Positions 110 through 8,420 of a DNA stretch of 14,328 nt are shown here, one piece after another; positions within the stretch are counted from its first letter, which is position 1; the number at the start of each line of letters is the position of its first letter. The translations under genes were made by a program, and so were the position numbers. The DNA is taken from IMG/VR virus record IMGVR_UViG_2526164690_000029. The stretch is one strand, 5' to 3'. Under the pieces are notes generated by a model. The model did no database searches, was not told the DNA's origin, and was given only the letters and a program-made list of their open reading frames with translations. The DNA is from a virus. Taxonomy: Duplodnaviria; Heunggongvirae; Uroviricota; Caudoviricetes.

Positions 110-330
110 CATTCCACGGACAAAACAGAGAAAGGAAACGACAAAGGCCAAAAAGCCCGTTTTCAGCACCTGTCGTTTCCTTTCTTTTCAGGGGGTGTTT
201 TAAATAAAAACATTAGGTTACGGCGAAGAAGAACGGAAACGCCTTAAACCGGAAAATTTTCATAAATAGCGAAAACCCGCGAGGTCGCCGCCCCGTAACC
301 TGTCGGATCGCCGGAAAGGACCCGCAAAAT
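110..330. other. cos: lambda-type cohesive end site (cosB/cosN/cosQ region)
   Basis: aggtcgccgccc at 282..293 is the reverse complement of the lambda 12-nt cohesive end GGGCGGCGACCT. It lies between the Nu1 start and sequence resembling the lambda right end; cosB is expected between cosN and Nu1. Confidence 0.7.
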
Positions 331-492
331 GATAATAATTATCATCTATATGTCACAACGTGCATCTACGCCATCAAACCACGTCAAATAATCAATTATG
401 ACGCAGGTATCGTATTAATTGATCTGCATCAACTTAACGTAAAAACAACTTCAGACAATACAAATCAGCGACACTGAATACGGGGCAACCTC

Positions 493-687
493 ATGTCAAC
501 GAAGAACAAAACCCGCAGAACAACAACCCGCAACATCCGCTTTCCTAACCAAATGATTGAACAAATTAACATCGCTCTTGAGCAAAAAGGGTCTGGGAAT
601 TTCTCAGCCTGGGTCATTGAAGCCTGCCGTCGGAGACTAACGTCAGAAAAGAGAGCATATACATCAATCCAAAGTGATGATGAATAA
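493..687 (+). CDS. ylcI: YlcI-like small DUF3950 protein, possible ribbon-helix-helix fold
   Basis: 64-aa ORF MSTKNKTRRTTTRNIRFPNQMIEQINIALEQKGSGNFSAWVIEACRRRL... closely resembles YlcI of the E. coli K-12 DLP12 prophage as recalled; it sits at the prophage right end next to cos. Confidence 0.7.
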   Translation: MSTKNKTRRTTTRNIRFPNQMIEQINIALEQKGSGNFSAWVIEACRRRLTSEKRAYTSIQSDDE

Positions 688-1046
688 ACATCCCGGTTTC
701 TTCCACCATCGCACCGGAAAAGCGACTATGAGGGTAACCCTGCGTCTGTCAGCACAGTAAAACCCGGTGTGCATCGTTTTTGATTATTCCCACACACTCA
801 CGCAGAAGGAATTCCCCGTCGGGCTACGGTCATGGTTAATGCGGGAATACGGCGACGATACAGCGCAGCTAAAAGGGTAATGGACAGATAGAGCGGTTTA
901 TTTCATTCCACAGGATTCTGAGTGCCCCCCTCCTCCAATAGGCTGAGCATCCACCTATATAGTTTTAATTTTCATCAATCCATTTAACTATCGTTTAATT
1001 GTTGTCACATAGGATTCTGCCGTTTTTAACAATGCAGGATAATAAG

Positions 1047-1341
1047 ATGAAAAAAATGTTGTTTTCTGCCGCTCTGGCAATGCTTATTACAGGATGTGCT
1101 CAACAGACGTTTACTGTTGGAAACAAACCGACAGCAGTAACACCAAAGGAAACCATCACCCAATCACTTCTTCGTTTCGGGAATTGGACAGGAGAAAACT
1201 GTTGATGCAGCCAAAATTTGTGGCGGCGCAGAAAATGTTGTTAAAACAGAAACCCAGCAAACATTCGTAAATGGATTGCTCGGTTTTATTACTTTAGGCA
1301 TTTATACTCCGCTGGAAGCGCGTGTGTATTGCTCACAATAA
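1047..1341 (+). pseudogene. bor: bor/iss-family serum-resistance lipoprotein, frameshifted
   Basis: MKKMLFSAALAMLITGCAQQTFTVGNKPTAVTPKETIT (lipobox LITGC) matches Bor/Iss, then the frame breaks near 1150-1160 (cccaatcac versus expected cccatcac). The Bor C-terminus KTVDAAKICGGAENVVKTETQQTFVNGLLGFITLGIYTPLEARVYCSQ continues in the +1 frame to the stop at 1339..1341. An alternative Iss-like start (MQDNKMKKM) is at 1032. Confidence 0.8.
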
Positions 1342-1351
1342 TTGCATGAGT

Positions 1352-1369
1352 TGCCCATCGATATGGGCA
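1352..1369. other. Hairpin between convergent bor and Rz; possible weak bidirectional terminator
   Basis: Perfect inverted repeat tgcccat-cgat-atgggca (7-bp stem, 4-nt loop) directly after the Rz stop and 10 nt after the bor stop. No clear U-tract on either strand. Confidence 0.3.
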
Positions 1370-1372
1370 GCT

Positions 1373-1835
1373 CTATCTGCACTGCTCATTAATATACGTC
1401 TGGGTTCCTTCCAGTTGTTTTTGCATAGTGATCAGCCTCTCTCTGAGGGTGAAATAATCCCGTTCAGCGGTGTCTGCCAGTCGGGGGGAGGCTGCATTAT
1501 CCACGCCGGAGGCGGTGGTGGCTTCACGCACTGACTGACAGACTGCTTTGATGTGCAACCGACGACGACCAGCGGCAACATCATCACGCAGAGCATCATT
1601 TTCAGCTTTCGCATCAGCTAACTCCTTCGTGTATTTTGCATCGAGCGCAGCAACATCACGCTGACGCATCTGCATGTCAGTAATTGCCGCGTTCGCCAGC
1701 TTCAGTTCTCTGGCATTTTTGTCGCGCTGGGCTTTGTAGGTAATGGCGTTATCACGGTAATGATTAACAGCCCATGACAGGCAGACGATGATGCAGATAA
1801 CCAGAGCGGAGTATAATCGCGGTTACTCTGTTCAT
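1373..1835 (-). pseudogene. Rz: Rz i-spanin, frameshifted near codon 9
   Basis: ATG at 1835 overlaps the endolysin stop (ATGA) and reads MNRVTAII before hitting a stop after 24 codons. The rest of Rz (…[49 protein letters not shown]…EQCR) is intact in another frame; the difference from lambda looks like one extra A in gattatactcc. Confidence 0.75.
1432..1614 (-). CDS. Rz1: Rz1 o-spanin lipoprotein, embedded in the Rz +1 frame
   Basis: 60-aa [63 protein letters not shown], matching lambda Rz1 as recalled, with lipobox VVGC and a proline-rich tract. Confidence 0.85.
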
Positions 1836-2329
1836 TGCTGACCCCACAAACAGATTTCACGCTCAATCTCACGACGAGTCATGAGACCTTTCCATTGCTT
1901 ACCGCCAGCATATGTCCAGCGACGTAGCTGATCACATGCGCCTTTGATATCGCCCTGGTTTATTTTGCGAAGAAGCGTCGATGTTCTGAAATTGCCAGCA
2001 CCCACGTTGTAAACGAATGAGTAAAGAGCGCCGCGCGTTGTTTCCGGTATATCGACTTCGATGTACGGGTTAATTTGTCTGGCGACAGTGGCAAGGTCTT
2101 TATTCAAGAGTGCTTTGCATTCTGCTTTGGTATACGTTTTACCGGGAATGATGTCTTTTCCGGTGTGTCCGTGACATACAGTCCATACGCCAACGATATC
2201 TTCGTATGGTATGTAGCTGACACCTTCCAGGCCATCGTCACCACTCGGACCAGTGATGAGCACAGACGCTATGGCAACAGCCCCACCACCAATAGCAGCA
2301 GCAACAGCCTTGCGTAATGATGGCGACAT
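1832..2329 (-). CDS. R: SAR endolysin, T4-type lysozyme (phage 21 R / DLP12 RrrD-like)
   Basis: 165-aa ORF with a weakly hydrophobic Gly/Ala-rich N-terminus ([21 protein letters not shown]) typical of a signal-anchor-release domain, followed by a lysozyme domain. Resembles phage 21 R; the stop overlaps the Rz start. Confidence 0.9.
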
Positions 2330-2544
2330 TATTCACCTCTCGCAGCCTTACGCTTATCTTCTTTAATCTTGAAATAAAGGTTTGTCAGATACGTCAGCAA
2401 GCCAAACACCAGGCTACCCAATACGCCTATTGCCACCCACTGGGATGGGGAGACTTTGTCCAGCAACTGCAGTAGCCAGTATCCCGTCCCCACCGCTGAC
2501 GTGGTGTATGACACACCTGTTGTTATTTTTTCCATCTGGTACAT
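2329..2544 (-). CDS. S: Pinholin (phage 21 S-type) with dual-start motif
   Basis: [71 protein letters not shown] (71 aa) resembles the S21 pinholin; Met1 and Met4 give the holin/antiholin pair. The stop overlaps the endolysin start by 1 nt. Confidence 0.85.
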
Positions 2545-2952
2545 ACCCCGTCTCCCGTTATCCGGAAGCTGACAACAATAAAAAGCCACCAGTTAATTCC
2601 TGATGGCCCTGATGCATAAACGTCATAATACCTGACTGTTATGATTGACAATAATGATAATGTTTATATAGAAAGGTTCCCGATGTGTGTTACATATCAT
2701 TTCTCCACGGGGAATATCCCCACGCCAGCGCAGACTCTTTTACCCGTTCTCTTCTGCGCTGGCTCTTTTTTATTATGCTGCTGCATTTACCTCTGGCACC
2801 ATGCTTTCTATCTCAACACAATACGTGGTACTTCTTGTAACCAATATCATAACGATTAATCGACATAGAATTTCTCCCGTGTACAGGAACAGAGTTAAAA
2901 AGCCGGAACCGGAATCAAATCACAGGATGACCATCTGCCAGTGGCAGGTCAT

Positions 2953-2979
2953 AAAAAAAAGGCCGCGCCATGCGCAGCC
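2953..2979 (-). terminator. Intrinsic terminator candidate inside the late transcription unit
   Basis: Minus strand reads ggctgcgc-atg-gcgcggcc followed by TTTTTTTT (8-bp GC-rich stem with one G-U pair, then a U8 tract). Confidence 0.45.
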
Positions 2980-3693
2980 AGAACTCACAAGGAAAATGAT
3001 AGAAGGAAATAACATTAGTGATGTACGCATGGCGCCTCCCGCTAAGTTCTGCAATGATCAAACAGAACTCGCTACGTGCCCTTAAAACTCGATCATTTAG
3101 CCCCTCCAAGGAGGATTCACCATGCGGTTGATTTTTTAATAAACAGTAAACAAAAAAGTCAAGAATTATTCATTCTGTTCTTTCATCATCGGCCACAGCA
3201 ATACCACAATGCCGCAGACCAGAGCGCCATCAGTCAGTACCAACATTATCCTGCTGGTGAAATCCATCATCACCATCACTAAAAGCAGGATCACAACAGC
3301 AAGCAGACACAGTTTATAAAACAATGTTCAGAAAACGCATTCAGCATGCCTAAGGTTCTATTCCTACGAATAGCCAACTTGCAACTTAAAATATTATTTA
3401 TGCAGCCAATTAAATTCTGGTCCTTACAATATCAACCTGAAGATTCTTATCTTGTGCTGATTGATAAATGACAAACCTTTTACTACCTGCATTGAAAGAA
3501 GTAGACAAAACCAGACAATTATCATAACGAGCAAGAACATAATACCAACCATCATTATAATTAATCATTTCATATTCTTTCTTAAACTGTGGTTTGTAAT
3601 ATCCTGTCAGAAATGAAAAAAGCCAGAAATATGCCACAAAAGCAATCATCACAATCTCAAAAAAATGTTTTTTTATAAATGGCTTATCATAGA

Positions 3694-3702
3694 AGCATGA
3701 TA
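3694..3702. repeat. IS10 target-site duplication, left copy (AGCATGATA)
   Basis: The 9 bp directly left of the IS10 outside end are identical to the 9 bp directly right of the inside end (5032..5040). Confidence 0.9.
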
Positions 3703-3748
3703 CTGATGAATCCCCTAATGATTTTGGTAAAAATCATTAAGTTAAGGT

Positions 3749-3817
3749 GGATACACATCTTGTCATATGATCAAATGGTTTCGCGAAAAATCAATAATCA
3801 GACAACAAGATGTGCGA
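3749..3817 (-). ncRNA. IS10 RNA-OUT antisense RNA (position inferred from IS10 architecture)
   Basis: Established IS10 biology: pOUT drives an ~69-nt antisense RNA covering the transposase start. Coordinates are placed by offset from the IS10 outside end, not from independently recognised motifs. Confidence 0.4.
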
Positions 3818-5018
3818 ACTCGATATTTTACACGACTCTCTTTACCAATTCTGCCCCGAATTACACTTAAAACGACTCAACAGCTTAACGTTGGCTTGCC
3901 ACGCATTACTTGACTGTAAAACTCTCACTCTTACCGAACTTGGCCGTAACCTGCCAACCAAAGCGAGAACAAAACATAACATCAAACGAATCGACCGATT
4001 GTTAGGTAATCGTCACCTCCACAAAGAGCGACTCGCTGTATACCGTTGGCATGCTAGCTTTATCTGTTCGGGCAATACGATGCCCATTGTACTTGTTGAC
4101 TGGTCTGATATTCGTGAGCAAAAACGACTTATGGTATTGCGAGCTTCAGTCGCACTACACGGTCGTTCTGTTACTCTTTATGAGAAAGCGTTCCCGCTTT
4201 CAGAGCAATGTTCAAAGAAAGCTCATGACCAATTTCTAGCCGACCTTGCGAGCATTCTACCGAGTAACACCACACCGCTCATTGTCAGTGATGCTGGCTT
4301 TAAAGTGCCATGGTATAAATCCGTTGAGAAGCTGGGTTGGTACTGGTTAAGTCGAGTAAGAGGAAAAGTACAATATGCAGACCTAGGAGCGGAAAACTGG
4401 AAACCTATCAGCAACTTACATGATATGTCATCTAGTCACTCAAAGACTTTAGGCTATAAGAGGCTGACTAAAAGCAATCCAATCTCATGCCAAATTCTAT
4501 TGTATAAATCTCGCTCTAAAGGCCGAAAAAATCAGCGCTCGACACGGACTCATTGTCACCACCCGTCACCTAAAATCTACTCAGCGTCGGCAAAGGAGCC
4601 ATGGGTTCTAGCAACTAACTTACCTGTTGAAATTCGAACACCCAAACAACTTGTTAATATCTATTCGAAGCGAATGCAGATTGAAGAAACCTTCCGAGAC
4701 TTGAAAAGTCCTGCCTACGGACTAGGCCTACGCCATAGCCGAACGAGCAGCTCAGAGCGTTTTGATATCATGCTGCTAATCGCCCTGATGCTTCAACTAA
4801 CATGTTGGCTTGCGGGCGTTCATGCTCAGAAACAAGGTTGGGACAAGCACTTCCAGGCTAACACAGTCAGAAATCGAAACGTACTCTCAACAGTTCGCTT
4901 AGGCATGGAAGTTTTGCGGCATTCTGGCTACACAATAACAAGGGAAGACTTACTCGTGGCTGCAACCCTACTAGCTCAAAATTTATTCACACATGGTTAC
5001 GCTTTGGGGAAATTATGA
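3810..5018 (+). CDS. tnp: IS10 transposase (402 aa)
   Basis: ORF MCELDILHDSLYQFCPELHLKRLNSLTLACHALLDCKTLTLTELGRNLPTKARTKHNIKRIDRLLGNRH... matches the Tn10/IS10 transposase as recalled. Confidence 0.95.
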   Translation: MCELDILHDSLYQFCPELHLKRLNSLTLACHALLDCKTLTLTELGRNLPTKARTKHNIKRIDRLLGNRHLHKERLAVYRWHASFICSGNTMPIVLVDWSDIREQKRLMVLRASVALHGRSVTLYEKAFPLSEQCSKKAHDQFLADLASILPSNTTPLIVSDAGFKVPWYKSVEKLGWYWLSRVRGKVQYADLGAENWKPISNLHDMSSSHSKTLGYKRLTKSNPISCQILLYKSRSKGRKNQRSTRTHCHHPSPKIYSASAKEPWVLATNLPVEIRTPKQLVNIYSKRMQIEETFRDLKSPAYGLGLRHSRTSSSERFDIMLLIALMLQLTCWLAGVHAQKQGWDKHFQANTVRNRNVLSTVRLGMEVLRHSGYTITREDLLVAATLLAQNLFTHGYALGKL

Positions 5019-5031
5019 GGGGATCTCTCAG

Positions 5032-5040
5032 AGCATGATA
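5032..5040. repeat. IS10 target-site duplication, right copy (AGCATGATA)
   Basis: Identical to 3694..3702. Confidence 0.9.
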
Positions 5041-5639
5041 CCGATAAAAATCGCCCATAAGATCTTATCGAAATTGTAACCGCCAGCGCAATCGCTGCTG
5101 ACAGTAGCAAAAGAGGTACCTGAATCTTCTGTCTCAATATAGAAAACTCAATAATTGCCGGCACAAACAATAATTCCACAGCAAAATAAAGGCGAAATAC
5201 ATTTAGCTCTTGCATAGAATGTTTTCTTTTCACTGCGAAAAAGAATACAACACCAATACCCAACCGATAAGAAATATAGCAATGACGATAACTGCAAAAA
5301 ATAAACTTCTGGCAACATCATCAACACCTGCACCTACAATCCACCATGGGAAGCCGTAGTAAAAAGAAGTACCCCATCCATAGAAATAAGCACTCCCCCA
5401 TCCAAGGCATCCCATGTAGGCAATAAAAAGTGAAGAACTCCTGAGCAGCGCACCATCCTTCATAACCACCCCAATACAAGATGATAACATTGGCTTACAA
5501 CTCATAACAAAAGCAATTCAATGCCGTCAAGAGGTTACAGGCTAAAAAAACTCTATTACATTGCAGTCAGCATGTTTACTACACAAATACAATTCAGAGC
5601 ATAAAAACTACTCGGCGGCAGGTTATTGAGACTCATCAA

Positions 5640-5705
5640 TGACATGTAAAAAACGCCCATTATTGGTGTCAAGTTTCCCCAAAGTTATTCAAAAAGTCAA
5701 TATTA
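5640..5705 (-). promoter_or_regulatory. Late promoter pR'-like region downstream of Q
   Basis: Minus strand reads TTGACTTTTTGAATAACTTTGGGGAAACTTGACACCAATAATGGGCG, resembling the lambda pR' region (TTGACTTATTGAATAAAATTGGGTAAATTTGACT) as recalled. The -35 TTGACA lies at 5667..5672; the -10 is less clear. Confidence 0.4.
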
Positions 5706-5742
5706 TGCCGTTAATATGTTGCCATCCGTGGCAATCATGGCG

Positions 5743-6366
5743 CTAACGTGTGATCGCATTCAAAATGTTGTCTGCGATTGACTCTTCCTTGTGGCATTGC
5801 ACAACCAGAGCGTCATACAGCGGCTTAACAGTGCGTGACCAGGTGGGTTGGGTAAGGTTTGGGATTAGCATCGTCACAGCGCGATATGCGGCGCTTGCTG
5901 GCATTCTTGAATAACCGACGCCTTTACATCTTCCGCACTCTTTCTCAGCAACTATCCCCCACTGCTCTGTTTTGGCTATATCAACCGCACGGCCTGTACC
6001 GTGGCAATCTCTGCATCTTGCGCCCGGCGTAGCGGCACTACGGCAATAATCCGCATAAGCGAATGTTGCGAGCACTTGCAGTACCTTTGCCTTAGTATTT
6101 CCTTCGAGCTTTGCCACACCACGGTATTTCCCCGATACCTTGTGTGCAAATTGCATCAGATAGTTGATAGCCTTTTGTTTGTCGTTCTGGCTGAGTTCAT
6201 GCTTACCGCAGAATGCAGCCATTCCGAATCCGGCTTGTGATTGCGCCATCCCCATAGCAGCCATCACATCAGTACCAGAAAGAGAGTCAGAAGCCGTAGC
6301 CCGTGGTGAATCGCTCATCATCGGGCTTTTTGGCGAATGAAATTTAGCTACGCTTTCGAGTCTCAT
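5743..6366 (-). CDS. Q: Late-gene antiterminator Q (lambda type)
   Basis: 207-aa [113 protein letters not shown]... with the zinc-binding CRDCHGTGR…CGRCKG motif; near-identical to lambda Q as recalled. Confidence 0.95.
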
Positions 6367-7027
6367 GCGCCTTCTCCCTGTACCTGAATCAATGTGAGGT
6401 TTCCGCAGAACACTGCGCCAGTATCGATATACATCTGGTTGGCAAATTTGAGTGGTTTCACTGCTGGCGTATGACCAAAGATGAACGTGTCCGCGCCTTT
6501 GATTTCTTTCACGATCCCGTCTTGTGAGTTGCTGATTCGTTCGCGGTTCCAGATTACCTGCTGATGATCAACTGGCTTTCCAAACTCGTATTTATCACAA
6601 GGATAATCGGCGTGGCAGATGACATATTTTTTCCTTTACTCACCAGTTCGATGATTAACGGAAGTTCATCTGCTTTATGGGCAAGAGCTTTAGCCAGAAT
6701 TTCTTTGTCGTAATCGAGATTAAAGAACCAGCCACCGCCATTAAGCAGCCAGTGATTGACGTTTCCACGCTCTGATAAGCCATCAATCATCATTTGCTCA
6801 TGGTTTCCACGTACAGCTCTGAACCAGGGGAATGTGATTAATTCCAGGCATTCTACGTTCTCTGTACCGCGATCAACCAAATCGCCCACCGAGATAAGCA
6901 GGTCTTTTTTGGTGTCGAATCCTATCGTCTCCAGTTTTTTCATCAGGTTCGTGTAGCATCCGTGCAGATCGCCAACTACCCAAATATTTCGGTATTTGCT
7001 GCCATCAATTCTTTCGTAGATATTCAT
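6363..7027 (-). pseudogene. ninI: Ser/Thr protein phosphatase NinI (lambda PPase, orf221 type), frameshifted at a poly-A tract
   Basis: [29 protein letters not shown]…GDLVDRG…GNHE carries the metallophosphatase motifs and matches lambda PPase. The frame breaks after ELVSK at the A-run near 6627..6635, and the C-terminal part ([11 protein letters not shown]…IQVQGEGA) continues in another frame to the stop overlapping the Q start. Confidence 0.85.
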
Positions 7028-7626
7028 GCAACCTCACTTCTGCTGTTTCGCAGTTTTTTAAGTTTCTGTTGATACTCCGCCTTGATGGCCCTGCACTCTT
7101 CGACAGTCCAGCGATAGCGGTTATGGTTTGATTCGATTTCCTCTACTGCTTCCTGCCCGATGCGGCTAATCAGTTCGACGCGATACGGAACGAGATTTCC
7201 GCTTTTGTGCTGGTTGCACACCACGCATTGCTTGTGAATATTGCGTTCATCAAATCGGAGTTGAGGTGCCGCAGCAGTTGTCCGGTAATGTCCGGCATCC
7301 CACTGAGCAGACGTGAGCGTTCCGCACGAGATACATGGTAAGTCGCGGTCTCTTTCTCTGATGAAGGCGTTTACGGCTTGTTGGGCTTGTTTAATCCAGT
7401 AACTGCGGGGCTTTAAGGCGAGTTTTCGAATCTTCAGTTTATCTTTCTGTTTCTGCTCCTCTCGTCGTAGTTTCTTCTCTGCTGCTTTTTCCGCTTTTTC
7501 GCGTTCTTTACTTCGTCGTTCGAGTGCTATCTTGGTTCCACAAATCTCATTACACCAATATTGATTTTGATATTTTGGTATAAACCATTCATTGCAACAT
7601 TTACATTTCCTTCGATAGATTCGCAT
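7024..7626 (-). CDS. ninG: NinG (Rap) protein with a replaced, AT-rich-coded N-terminus
   Basis: [103 protein letters not shown]… matches lambda NinG from GTKIALERR onward. The start ATG at 7626 has an AAAGGAG Shine-Dalgarno site inside the 3' end of the upstream HNH ORF. Confidence 0.8.
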
Positions 7627-8167
7627 AAGTGCTCCTTTCGTTGCCGGAAAAATCACCGTAATACTTATCTCGGGCTTCTTCAGCAACTAGTACCGCTAAC
7701 TCCAGATCATCAAAGCATCCGAAGTGTTTACTCTTGCCATGGAATCCTAGCCTAACATTCCATTTTTTCTGTCGTTTGTGCCAAGTAACCCCTCTGCAAC
7801 CTGATTTGCTATTCTTTCGGATCCTTATATTTCTTGAATTTTCTATTGGCAGGCATTCTCTTAAATTTTCTGGCCTATTGTCGGTCCTAATTCCATTAAC
7901 GTGGTCAATTTGACCAGCAGGCCAACGATTATGAGTTATGTAAAAAACTAAGACGTGAGTTTTATATCTACGCCCATCTATCATGATCATTGAATAACCG
8001 TTGGAATCAAAAGTTCCAGCAACACTATTTAATGCTATCCTTCCCTGAGTGGGAACTTTCCATCTAAATACCCCGGTAGATTTATCGAAACTTAGTAACT
8101 CAAATATCCTTTTAACAGTTAAATCTTCTCTTTTACGGTTACATCGTCTTCGCGCTGGTTTAGCCAT
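7601..8167 (-). CDS. HNH endonuclease with C-terminal AP2-like domain, fused in frame to the first 9 codons of ninG (homing-endonuclease-like insertion)
   Basis: Starts MAKPARRRC (the lambda NinG N-terminus, with its native ribosome-binding site), then [21 protein letters not shown]…[19 protein letters not shown] (HNH motif) …[52 protein letters not shown] (AP2-like). The coding sequence is AT-rich compared with the flanking lambda-like DNA. Confidence 0.8.
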
Positions 8168-8366
8168 CGCCTTCTTCCTCCGTAATGGTTTTCTGAATTT
8201 GGCCACCTGAACAGAGCTCACCAAAGCTATGGATGTCGGTATTTCCACAATACCAAGATGGCGAAAATAACTGCATGATAAGCCTCAGGGAAAAGGGAAG
8301 ACACTACCCCCGATAATTCAGAAACAAATCGAAATACATGAACTAAAGAAAAAACCACAACAAACA

Positions 8367-8420
8367 GAAATAGAAATAGAAATAGAAATAGAAATAGAAA
8401 TAGAAATAGAAATAGAAATA
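8367..8420. repeat. Perfect hexanucleotide microsatellite (GAAATA)9
   Basis: Nine uninterrupted tandem GAAATA units, 54 bp, in the intergenic region between the minus-strand ninG/HNH block and the plus-strand island ORFs. Confidence 0.95.

What the first reader, a model, noticed from the sequence alone, without database searches (positions are those of the whole stretch)
8367..8420. Perfect (GAAATA)9 microsatellite in the divergent intergenic region
Nine uninterrupted hexanucleotide repeats are unusual in enterobacterial DNA. The tract lies ~120 bp from the ninG-side coding block on one strand and ~235-290 bp upstream of island ORF A on the other. Repeat-number variation here would not change any reading frame but could alter promoter geometry or DNA bending, so it is a possible contingency element for island expression.
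Basis: seen in the sequence. Interest (0 to 1): 0.5.

Follow-up and report, generated by a model that had tools for sequence, protein, structure and literature searches.

The report
Known EHEC typing repeat (VNTR-9)
The nine-copy GAAATA repeat is real and changes length quickly between strains, but it is the long-known "VNTR-9 / O157-9 / TR1 / Vhec4" marker used to fingerprint Shiga-toxin E. coli, it sits inside the dead remnant of a jumping gene, and nothing found here suggests it controls the neighbouring gene.

Summary
In detail: a perfect (GAAATA)9 lies at 8367-8420, against 0 matches in 200 shuffles. It is not new. The published forward primers of MLVA locus TR1 (8270-8289) and PulseNet VNTR-9 (8152-8178) match the window exactly, so this is VNTR-9 = O157-9 = TR1 = Vhec4, in use since 2003. 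Published data give 6-23 repeats, a diversity index of 0.90 and about 4e-5 to 1.3e-4 mutations per generation. In 40 homologous loci I counted 5-23 units. Loci with near-identical 2.5-kb flanks carry 6-23 units, and 11 tracts carry variant units. One possibly new detail is that the "intergenic" DNA (~8181-8598) is an internally deleted IS911-like relic. The tract is an expansion of the OrfA leucine-zipper codons GAA-ATG-GAG-AAT-GAA-ATA into (Glu-Ile)n. The contingency-element idea is not supported. The tract lies 315 bp from the island gene's start and in no independent promoter spacer. Diverged homologs of that gene have no upstream repeat. The tract varies equally where the gene is frameshifted (as in this window) or cut off by IS30 (O157:H7). 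The best reading is a neutral slippage-prone VNTR.

The parts
8367..8420 (+). Perfect (GAAATA)9 core of the VNTR. In the relic's reading frame it reads (Glu-Ile)9.
8362..8366 (+). Start of a degenerate first unit (AAACAG in the AAATAG register). In O157:H7 copies a C->T change makes it a perfect extra AAATAG unit.
8181..8598 (+). Internally deleted IS911-like (IS3-family) relic that contains the tract. It comprises a left-end fragment at 8193-8216 (24/24 nt identical to IS911 nt 10-33), an orfA remnant at 8205-8465 with two in-frame stops, an orfB N-terminal fragment at about 8466-8561, and a right-end-like segment at 8549-8598 (76% identical to IS911 nt 1199-1249).
8152..8178 (+). Exact site of the PulseNet VNTR-9 forward primer GCGCTGGTTTAGCCATCGCCTTCTTCC
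   Evidence: primer from PMC3321953 Table A1
8270..8289 (+). Exact site of the TR1 forward primer ACTGCATGATAAGCCTCAGG
   Evidence: primer and unit AAATAG from PMC2246123 Table 2
8434..8435 (.). Position where O157:H7-type copies carry an IS30 left end, 14 bp right of the tract. Both published reverse primers lie inside that IS30 and are absent from the window.
7601..8167 (-). HNH(-AP2) endonuclease gene. It is the first gene on the minus-strand side and starts with the NinG N-terminus MAKPARRRC.
8736..10507 (+). AT-rich moron gene ('island ORF A+B'). It is 590 aa when intact, and here it is split by A7->A6 slippage at 9618-9623 into 8736-9626 and 9680-10507. It belongs to an orphan family of unknown function.
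8581..8608 (+). Best, but weak (8 of 12), sigma-70-like site upstream of the island gene: TTGGTG-16-TATATT. Its -35 hexamer lies in the IS-relic right end. It is 160 bp downstream of the tract.

Best explanation
The tract is the MLVA typing locus VNTR-9 (= O157-9 = TR1 = Vhec4). It is a hexanucleotide VNTR in the nin region of lambdoid prophages (Stx1-phage-like) of enterohaemorrhagic E. coli. It arose when three imperfect hexamers in the leucine-zipper codons of an IS911-like transposase orfA (GAA ATG GAG AAT GAA ATA in IS911) expanded after the IS had decayed into a non-coding relic. It now gains and loses whole 6-bp units by replication slippage (slipped-strand mispairing). This happens far faster than point substitution, and it continues because the surrounding DNA is dead, so nothing selects against it. 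It most likely has no function of its own, and its value is as an epidemiological marker. Shown here: the identity of the locus, the copy-number polymorphism, the IS-relic origin, and the independence of the variation from the state of the island gene. Inferred: slippage as the mechanism (published passage experiments support it) and neutrality.
For: Two published forward primers match exactly at 8152-8178 and 8270-8289, and the published unit is AAATAG. The synonymy Vhec4 = TR1 = O157-9 is printed in PMC3768571 Table 1. O157:H7 copies share the left flank, the tract and 14 bp of right flank, followed by an IS30 that holds both reverse primers. PMC3321953 reports 6-23 repeats, 15 alleles and a diversity index of 0.90. 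PMC3777172 reports about 4.3-4.6e-5 mutations per generation per strain and a combined rate of 1.3e-4; its two repeat-number changes were single-unit gains. In my data, 40 loci have 5-23 units, and 11 of them carry variant units, some duplicated (GAAATGx3, GAAACAx2). Loci with 0-1 substitutions in 2.5 kb of flank have 6, 7, 8, 8, 10, 11, 13, 13 and 23 units. For the relic, BLASTP against IS911 OrfA residues 24-98 gives 48% identity and E = 3e-23, and the only gap falls at the (EI)n expansion. There are two in-frame stops, and IS911 left-end, orfB-start and right-end fragments are present. Neither strand folds (0 to -0.3 kcal/mol), which fits simple misalignment and not hairpin-driven instability.
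Against: Neutrality is inferred and not measured, because no expression data were available. The tract lies on the same strand as the island gene and upstream of it, in AT-rich DNA (31-38% GC). An effect on nucleoid-protein binding or on a leader transcript therefore cannot be excluded. The standard reverse primers do not match the window, so by the PCR definition this allele would be scored 'null'.
Confidence: 0.87

Rival explanations
1. Contingency element. Length changes of the tract alter promoter geometry, DNA bending or H-NS-type silencing, and so switch or tune transcription of the + strand island gene.
For: The tract is hypermutable. It lies upstream of the island gene on the same strand, in AT-rich foreign-looking DNA. 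Expansion moves everything to its left by up to 84 bp or more relative to the gene.
Against: The tract ends 315 bp before the start codon and 160 bp before the best promoter-like site. The tool's scan at 9 of 12 matches finds no promoter in 8100-8800. The only site overlapping the tract is made of repeat units, so its spacing does not depend on copy number. A 6-bp period is out of phase with the roughly 10.5-bp helical repeat, so no cumulative intrinsic bend is expected (established DNA-curvature knowledge, not tested here). Diverged homologs lack any upstream repeat. The tract varies equally where the gene is frameshifted or replaced by IS30. The gene in this window is itself frameshifted.
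Confidence: 0.07
2. RNA-level role in the phage early-right (pR) operon. Read on the minus strand, the tract is a G-free, unstructured (UAUUUC)n stretch just upstream of HNH-ninG-Q. It could act as a variable Rho-loading or pausing site that tunes N-independent read-through to Q.
For: The minus strand carries O-P-ren-ninB-dam-ninE ... HNH-ninG-PPase-Q, so pR transcripts must cross the tract. The minus-strand tract has no predicted structure. In lambda the nin region is where the terminators upstream of Q lie (established knowledge).
Against: This is pure inference. The transcript has already crossed about 2.3 kb of untranslated antisense island RNA, where Rho could load anyway. N antitermination would override such a site. 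Many host prophages are degraded (IS insertions, and O interrupted in L005), yet the tract still varies.
Confidence: 0.03
3. The tract encodes a variable dipeptide repeat in a real small protein on the minus strand: (Phe-Leu)n in ORF 8227-8478, or (Ile-Ser)n in ORF 8318-8488. PGAP annotates the latter as 'hypothetical protein' in long alleles.
For: Both ORFs are open across the tract. PGAP calls a CDS there in genomes with 12 or more units. PMC3321953 lists the locus as 'inside ORF Z3935/Z3936'.
Against: Neither ORF matches any protein family, and I saw no Shine-Dalgarno sequence before either ATG when reading the sequence. The CDS is called only when expansion makes the ORF long enough. The IS30 insertion in O157:H7 removes the N-terminus of both ORFs. 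The DNA is demonstrably the antisense of a decayed transposase gene.
Confidence: 0.02

Closest known systems
MLVA locus VNTR-9 / O157-9 / TR1 / Vhec4 of E. coli O157:H7 (attributed in the papers read here to Lindstedt 2003, Noller 2003 and Keys 2005; used in the PulseNet protocol)
   Same: It has the same 6-bp unit (AAATAG register), the same left flank with both forward-primer sites, the same 14 bp of right flank, and the same neighbours (HNH-ninG-PPase-Q). It is highly polymorphic in the same way.
   Different: In the window, as in O111, O26, O145 and some O157:H7 copies, the right flank is the uninterrupted IS911-like relic plus the 590-aa gene. The IS30 that carries both reverse primers is absent. 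Standard PCR would therefore give a null allele although the tract is present.
Other hexanucleotide VNTRs of EHEC used in MLVA (O157-3, O157-10/TR2, O157-17, O157-19, O157-25, O157-37)
   Same: They are 6-bp units that change by whole-unit gain or loss at about 1e-5 to 1e-3 per generation, and they are regarded as typing markers.
   Different: They are different loci and sequences. I did not examine their genomic settings.
Promoter-associated phase-variable simple-sequence repeats of Neisseria and Haemophilus (for example TA repeats in the hifA/hifB promoter spacer, or the TAAA tract upstream of nadA). Recalled from knowledge, not tested here.
   Same: These are hypermutable short repeats upstream of a horizontally acquired, possibly host-interaction gene.
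   Different: Those tracts sit in, or immediately next to, the -35/-10 elements or a regulator site, and they are conserved with the gene. This one is 160 bp or more from any candidate promoter, lies in an IS relic, and is absent from diverged homologs.
IS911 (IS3 family)
   Same: The relic keeps a 24-nt perfect match to the IS911 left end. It also keeps an OrfA-homologous segment (48% aa identity), the start of orfB, and a right-end-like 50 nt.
   Different: It is not a functional IS. IS911 nt 34-154 and about 458-1198 are missing, there are two in-frame stops, there is no Pfam HTH_Tnp_1 hit, and a 54-bp microsatellite has expanded inside the leucine-zipper codons.

Membership tests
MLVA locus VNTR-9 / O157-9 / TR1 / Vhec4 | Tandem 6-bp unit AAATAG (the same repeat as GAAATA in another register) | tested here: met
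   TRF consensus is AAATAG with 9.8 copies. The published TR1 unit is AAATAG.
MLVA locus VNTR-9 / O157-9 / TR1 / Vhec4 | Published forward primers anneal immediately to the left of the tract | tested here: met
   TR1-F matches exactly at 8270-8289 and VNTR-9-F matches exactly at 8152-8178.
MLVA locus VNTR-9 / O157-9 / TR1 / Vhec4 | Orthology to the O157:H7 locus (shared flanks and neighbouring genes) | tested here: met
   O157:H7 loci L003 and L004 have the same HNH-ninG-PPase-Q block, left flank, tract and 14 bp of right flank.
MLVA locus VNTR-9 / O157-9 / TR1 / Vhec4 | Amplifiable with the published reverse primers (the operational definition) | tested here: not met
   There is no match within 3 mismatches in the window. 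Both primers lie in an IS30 that is present only in O157:H7-type copies. It is the same genomic locus, but the assay would score this allele as null.
MLVA locus VNTR-9 / O157-9 / TR1 / Vhec4 | Copy number polymorphic among closely related strains | tested here: met
   There are 5-23 units in 40 loci, and 6-23 units among loci with 0-1 substitutions in 2.5 kb of flank. O111:H8 genomes give record spans corresponding to 9, 10, 11 and 14 units.
Contingency (phase-variable) simple-sequence-repeat locus | Hypermutable simple sequence repeat | tested here: met
Contingency (phase-variable) simple-sequence-repeat locus | Repeat placed so that length changes switch a gene: either in a coding frame with a unit that is not a multiple of 3, or within or abutting promoter or operator elements | tested here: not met
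   The unit is 6 bp, so it cannot shift a frame, and no live ORF is involved. The tract is not in the spacer of any independent promoter-like site and lies 160 bp upstream of the best candidate.
Contingency (phase-variable) simple-sequence-repeat locus | Repeat retained with the regulated gene in diverged homologs or lineages | tested here: not met
   The E. albertii 71% homolog and the Salmonella 48-51% homologs have no upstream tandem repeat. The tract persists and varies where the gene is broken or absent.
Contingency (phase-variable) simple-sequence-repeat locus | Demonstrated ON/OFF or graded expression linked to repeat number | not testable with these tools
   This needs reporter or RNA measurements. 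No such study was found in the held library.
IS3-family insertion sequence (IS911-like) | Sequence homology to OrfA and to the IS ends | tested here: met
   BLASTP gives 48% identity and E = 3e-23 against IS911 OrfA residues 24-98. blastn matches the IS911 left end 24/24, nt 155-457 at 66%, and the right end at 76% over 51 nt.
IS3-family insertion sequence (IS911-like) | Intact orfA/orfB able to make transposase | tested here: not met
   There are two in-frame stops, the first ~23 codons are missing, only orfB residues 16-47 are detectable, and there is no Pfam hit. It is therefore a relic and not an active element.

The most novel reading that the evidence does not exclude
Tract length tunes transcription that starts in or reads through the IS911-like relic into the 590-aa moron gene. 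That gene belongs to an uncharacterised family found here only in E. coli, E. albertii, Salmonella and Providencia (genera that, from general knowledge, carry type III secretion systems), and in E. albertii it lies next to an NleF-family effector gene. If so, a routine typing marker would double as a stochastic expression switch for a candidate new effector.
Probability: 0.05. Interest if true: 0.45.

Novelty: already known. Interest (0 to 1): 0.1.

Why it matters
As a discovery it matters little, because the repeat has been a standard MLVA marker for EHEC outbreak typing for over twenty years and its hypervariability is measured. Two modest points may be useful. First, the tract is an expansion of leucine-zipper codons inside an internally deleted IS911-like relic. 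This explains where the marker came from and why it can vary freely. Second, both published reverse primers sit in an IS30 that only some copies carry. Some of the frequent 'null alleles' at VNTR-9 (31.7% in one German O157 series) may therefore be tracts that are present but not amplifiable. In whole-genome data the locus can be scored across O157, O26, O111 and O145 by anchoring on the relic flanks instead.

Tried and rejected
1. Promoter-spacer mechanism. The tool's scan found 0 sites in 8100-8800. My relaxed scan found only weak sites, none with the tract in an independent spacer.
2. Structured RNA. Rfam at E <= 1 found nothing in 8100-8800, and neither strand of the tract folds.
3. Minus-strand (FL)n and (IS)n ORFs as real genes. 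I rejected this: there are no family hits, the IS30 disrupts them in O157:H7, and the DNA is antisense to a transposase relic.
4. Function of the island protein. Pfam, PADLOC, NCBIfam and PDB sequence searches found nothing, and the PHROG match is 'unknown function'. The AlphaFold model from a 20-sequence alignment was poor (mean pLDDT 40, pTM 0.27), so I ran no fold search.
5. Literature retrieval. Look-ups of Vogler 2006 and Lindstedt 2003 by DOI or PMC id failed because the papers are not held. Searches for a functional study of the locus found none.
6. Exact source genome. The best match, O111:H11 strain 88.0502, has 8 units and the intact A7 allele, so it is not the window's source.
7. 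Other GAAATA arrays in IMG/VR, such as giant-virus MAGs, are unrelated AT-rich contexts.

Full report
**1. Observation**

Window 8367-8420 is exactly nine uninterrupted GAAATA units. Tandem Repeats Finder reports 8362-8420 with period 6, 9.8 copies, 98% matches and score 111. The extra 0.8 copy is a degenerate AAACAG unit on the left. An 18-nt probe of three units matches 7 times, against 0 matches in 200 dinucleotide-preserving shuffles.

**2. Setting**

The window is the early-right region of a lambdoid prophage of EHEC. The best match is E. coli O111:H11 strain 88.0502 at 99.9% over 249-14328.

- The minus strand carries the pR operon: O (interrupted by an IS), P, ren, ninB, dam and ninE, then HNH endonuclease (7601-8167), ninG, a Ser/Thr phosphatase and Q.
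- Between ninE and HNH lies an AT-rich insert (29-37% GC against 45-54% in the flanks). It carries one + strand gene that is 590 aa when intact.
- The same module occurs in Stx1-converting phages SH2026Stx1 and AU6Stx1.
- It occurs in 524 of 5426 complete E. coli genomes. Of these, 246 have both flanks as in the window.

**3. Identity of the repeat**

The forward primer of MLVA locus TR1 (ACTGCATGATAAGCCTCAGG, repeat unit AAATAG; PMC2246123 Table 2) matches 8270-8289 exactly. The PulseNet VNTR-9 forward primer (PMC3321953 Table A1) matches 8152-8178 exactly. PMC3768571 Table 1 equates Vhec4, TR1 and O157-9.

The two reverse primers do not match the window. The reason is clear in O157:H7 genomes. 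They share the left flank, the tract and 14 bp of right flank (TTAAAACAGACCAC). An IS30 left end then follows, and both reverse primers lie inside its transposase gene. So the window carries the same locus in its state before the IS30 insertion.

**4. Behaviour**

Published data for O157 are as follows.

- PMC3321953 reports 6-23 repeats, 15 alleles, a diversity index of 0.90 and 31.7% null alleles.
- PMC3777172 reports serial-passage mutation rates of about 4.3-4.6e-5 per generation per strain and 1.3e-4 combined. Its three Vhec4 events were two single-unit gains and one point mutation.

My own counts, anchored on both flanks in 40 loci (complete genomes, phage records and IMG/VR contigs), are these.

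- The loci carry 5-23 units, with most between 7 and 11.
- Eleven of the 40 tracts are interrupted by variant units (GAAACA, GAAGTA, GAAATG, GAATTA). Some variant units are themselves duplicated, which is a slippage signature.
- Loci with 0-1 substitutions across 2.5 kb of flank carry 6, 7, 8, 8, 10, 11, 13, 13 and 23 units.
- Neither strand of the tract has predicted secondary structure. This fits simple slipped-strand misalignment.

**5. Origin**

I did not find this point in the held literature. The left flank (8221-8361) is about 75% identical to IS911 orfA in Shigella phage Sf6. Read in the GAA-ATA frame, 8172-8522 translates to ...TELTKAMDVGISTIPRWRK\*LHDKPQGKGKTLPPIIQKQIEIHELKKKPQQT(EI)9LKQTTTFLMSYSLNN....

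- BLASTP against IS911 OrfA residues 24-98 gives 48% identity and E = 3e-23. The only gap is 12 residues long and falls at the (EI) expansion, opposite RIEMENEIL.
- At the codon level, IS911 has GAA ATG GAG AAT GAA ATA where the window has (GAA ATA)9.
- blastn also finds a 24/24 match to the IS911 left end (8193-8216), similarity through the start of orfB (to about 8560), and a 51-nt segment 76% identical to the IS911 right end (8549-8598).
- The conceptual protein has two in-frame stops and no Pfam hit.

The 'divergent intergenic region' is therefore an internally deleted, dead IS911-like element (~8181-8598). The VNTR is an expansion of its leucine-zipper codons.

**6. Test of the contingency idea**

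- *Position.* The tract ends 315 bp before the island gene's TTG start in 10 of the 13 copies measured, and 312-316 bp in all but the two interrupted tracts.
- *Promoters.* No promoter-like site at 9 of 12 matches exists in 8100-8800. At 8 of 12, the best + strand site is 8581-8608, which is 160 bp downstream of the tract. The one site overlapping the tract is made of repeat units, so its geometry is independent of copy number.
- *Homologs.* The island protein has unnamed homologs in E. albertii (71-93%), Salmonella enterica (48-51%) and Providencia (50%). The 71% and 48-51% homologs have no upstream tandem repeat and no upstream similarity. Only prophage versions with upstream DNA 88% or more identical keep the tract.
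- *Gene integrity.* The gene carries two independent 1-bp frameshifts 12 bp apart: A7->A6 in the window and L022, and GG->G in five loci including O111:H- 11128. The tract still ranges from 6 to 14 units on those backgrounds.
- *O157:H7.* The gene is gone and an IS30 sits 14 bp from the tract, yet the locus is among the most polymorphic.

All of this fits mutation-driven variation and not selection-maintained variation.

**7. Rivals**

A regulatory effect on the island gene cannot be excluded without expression data. I give it 0.07. An RNA-level effect on pR read-through (0.03) and a real (FL)n or (IS)n peptide (0.02) have no positive support.

**8. Verdict**

Its functional part is unsupported. 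Interest is low. The IS-relic origin and the explanation for null alleles are small additions.

Noticed in passing
window 8736-10507 (frameshift at 9618-9623); homologs P0001-P0100; loci L078-L086: The 590-aa moron protein belongs to an orphan family with no Pfam, PADLOC, NCBIfam or PDB match. I found it only in E. coli, E. albertii, Salmonella enterica and Providencia alcalifaciens. From general knowledge these genera carry type III secretion systems; I did not check that in these genomes. In E. albertii the gene sits beside an NleF-family effector gene, and in Salmonella it is a single-gene islet between cdd and sanA. The N-terminal ~125 residues are rich in Ser, Thr and Asn, predicted disordered, and contain a duplicated LTLNDFLDN motif. 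It may be an undescribed effector. The AlphaFold model was too poor to use (mean pLDDT 40).
   Followed up: partly
window 9618-9623 and 9630-9631 (island gene nt 883-896): Two independent 1-bp frameshifts lie 12 bp apart and split the island gene at codons ~296-301. A7->A6 occurs in the window and L022. GG->G occurs in L001, L007, L045, L050 and L060. About 32 other loci are intact and 99.6-100% identical. This may reflect recurrent inactivation, or a homopolymer on/off site. I did not map it on a phylogeny.
   Followed up: partly
window 7601-8167 (-) and 7024-7626 (-); 20-bp x2 repeat at 8109-8149: The HNH(-AP2) endonuclease ORF begins MAKPARRRC, identical to the first nine residues of NinG in phage HK544. 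The window's own NinG has a different N-terminal ~30 residues and then becomes nearly identical. This looks like a homing-type HNH gene that inserted into the 5' end of ninG and captured its start.
   Followed up: partly
window 8434/8435; loci L003, L004, L025, L035, L062: Both published VNTR-9/TR1 reverse primers lie inside an IS30 that only O157:H7-type copies carry. Copies without it (O111, O26, O145 and O157:H7 strain LSU61) would be scored as null alleles although the tract is present.
   Followed up: yes
window 3808-5016 (+) and 14041-14328; L005 6560-7768 and 16895-18103: An IS4-like (ISVsa5/IS10-type) transposase gene interrupts a gene between Q and the lysis cassette. In the closest genome a second copy interrupts replication gene O, and the window probably ends in or near that copy. 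The prophage is therefore probably defective.
   Followed up: no
window 8581-8608: The weak promoter-like site upstream of the island gene has its -35 hexamer inside the IS911-like right end and its -10 hexamer just outside. This is the layout of an IS-end hybrid promoter. The match is only 8 of 12, so this is a lead and not a finding.
   Followed up: no
window 1047-1340 (+), by offset from L005 3799-4092: An iss/bor-type 'increased serum survival' lipoprotein gene lies next to the lysis cassette, as is usual for lambdoid prophages.
   Followed up: no
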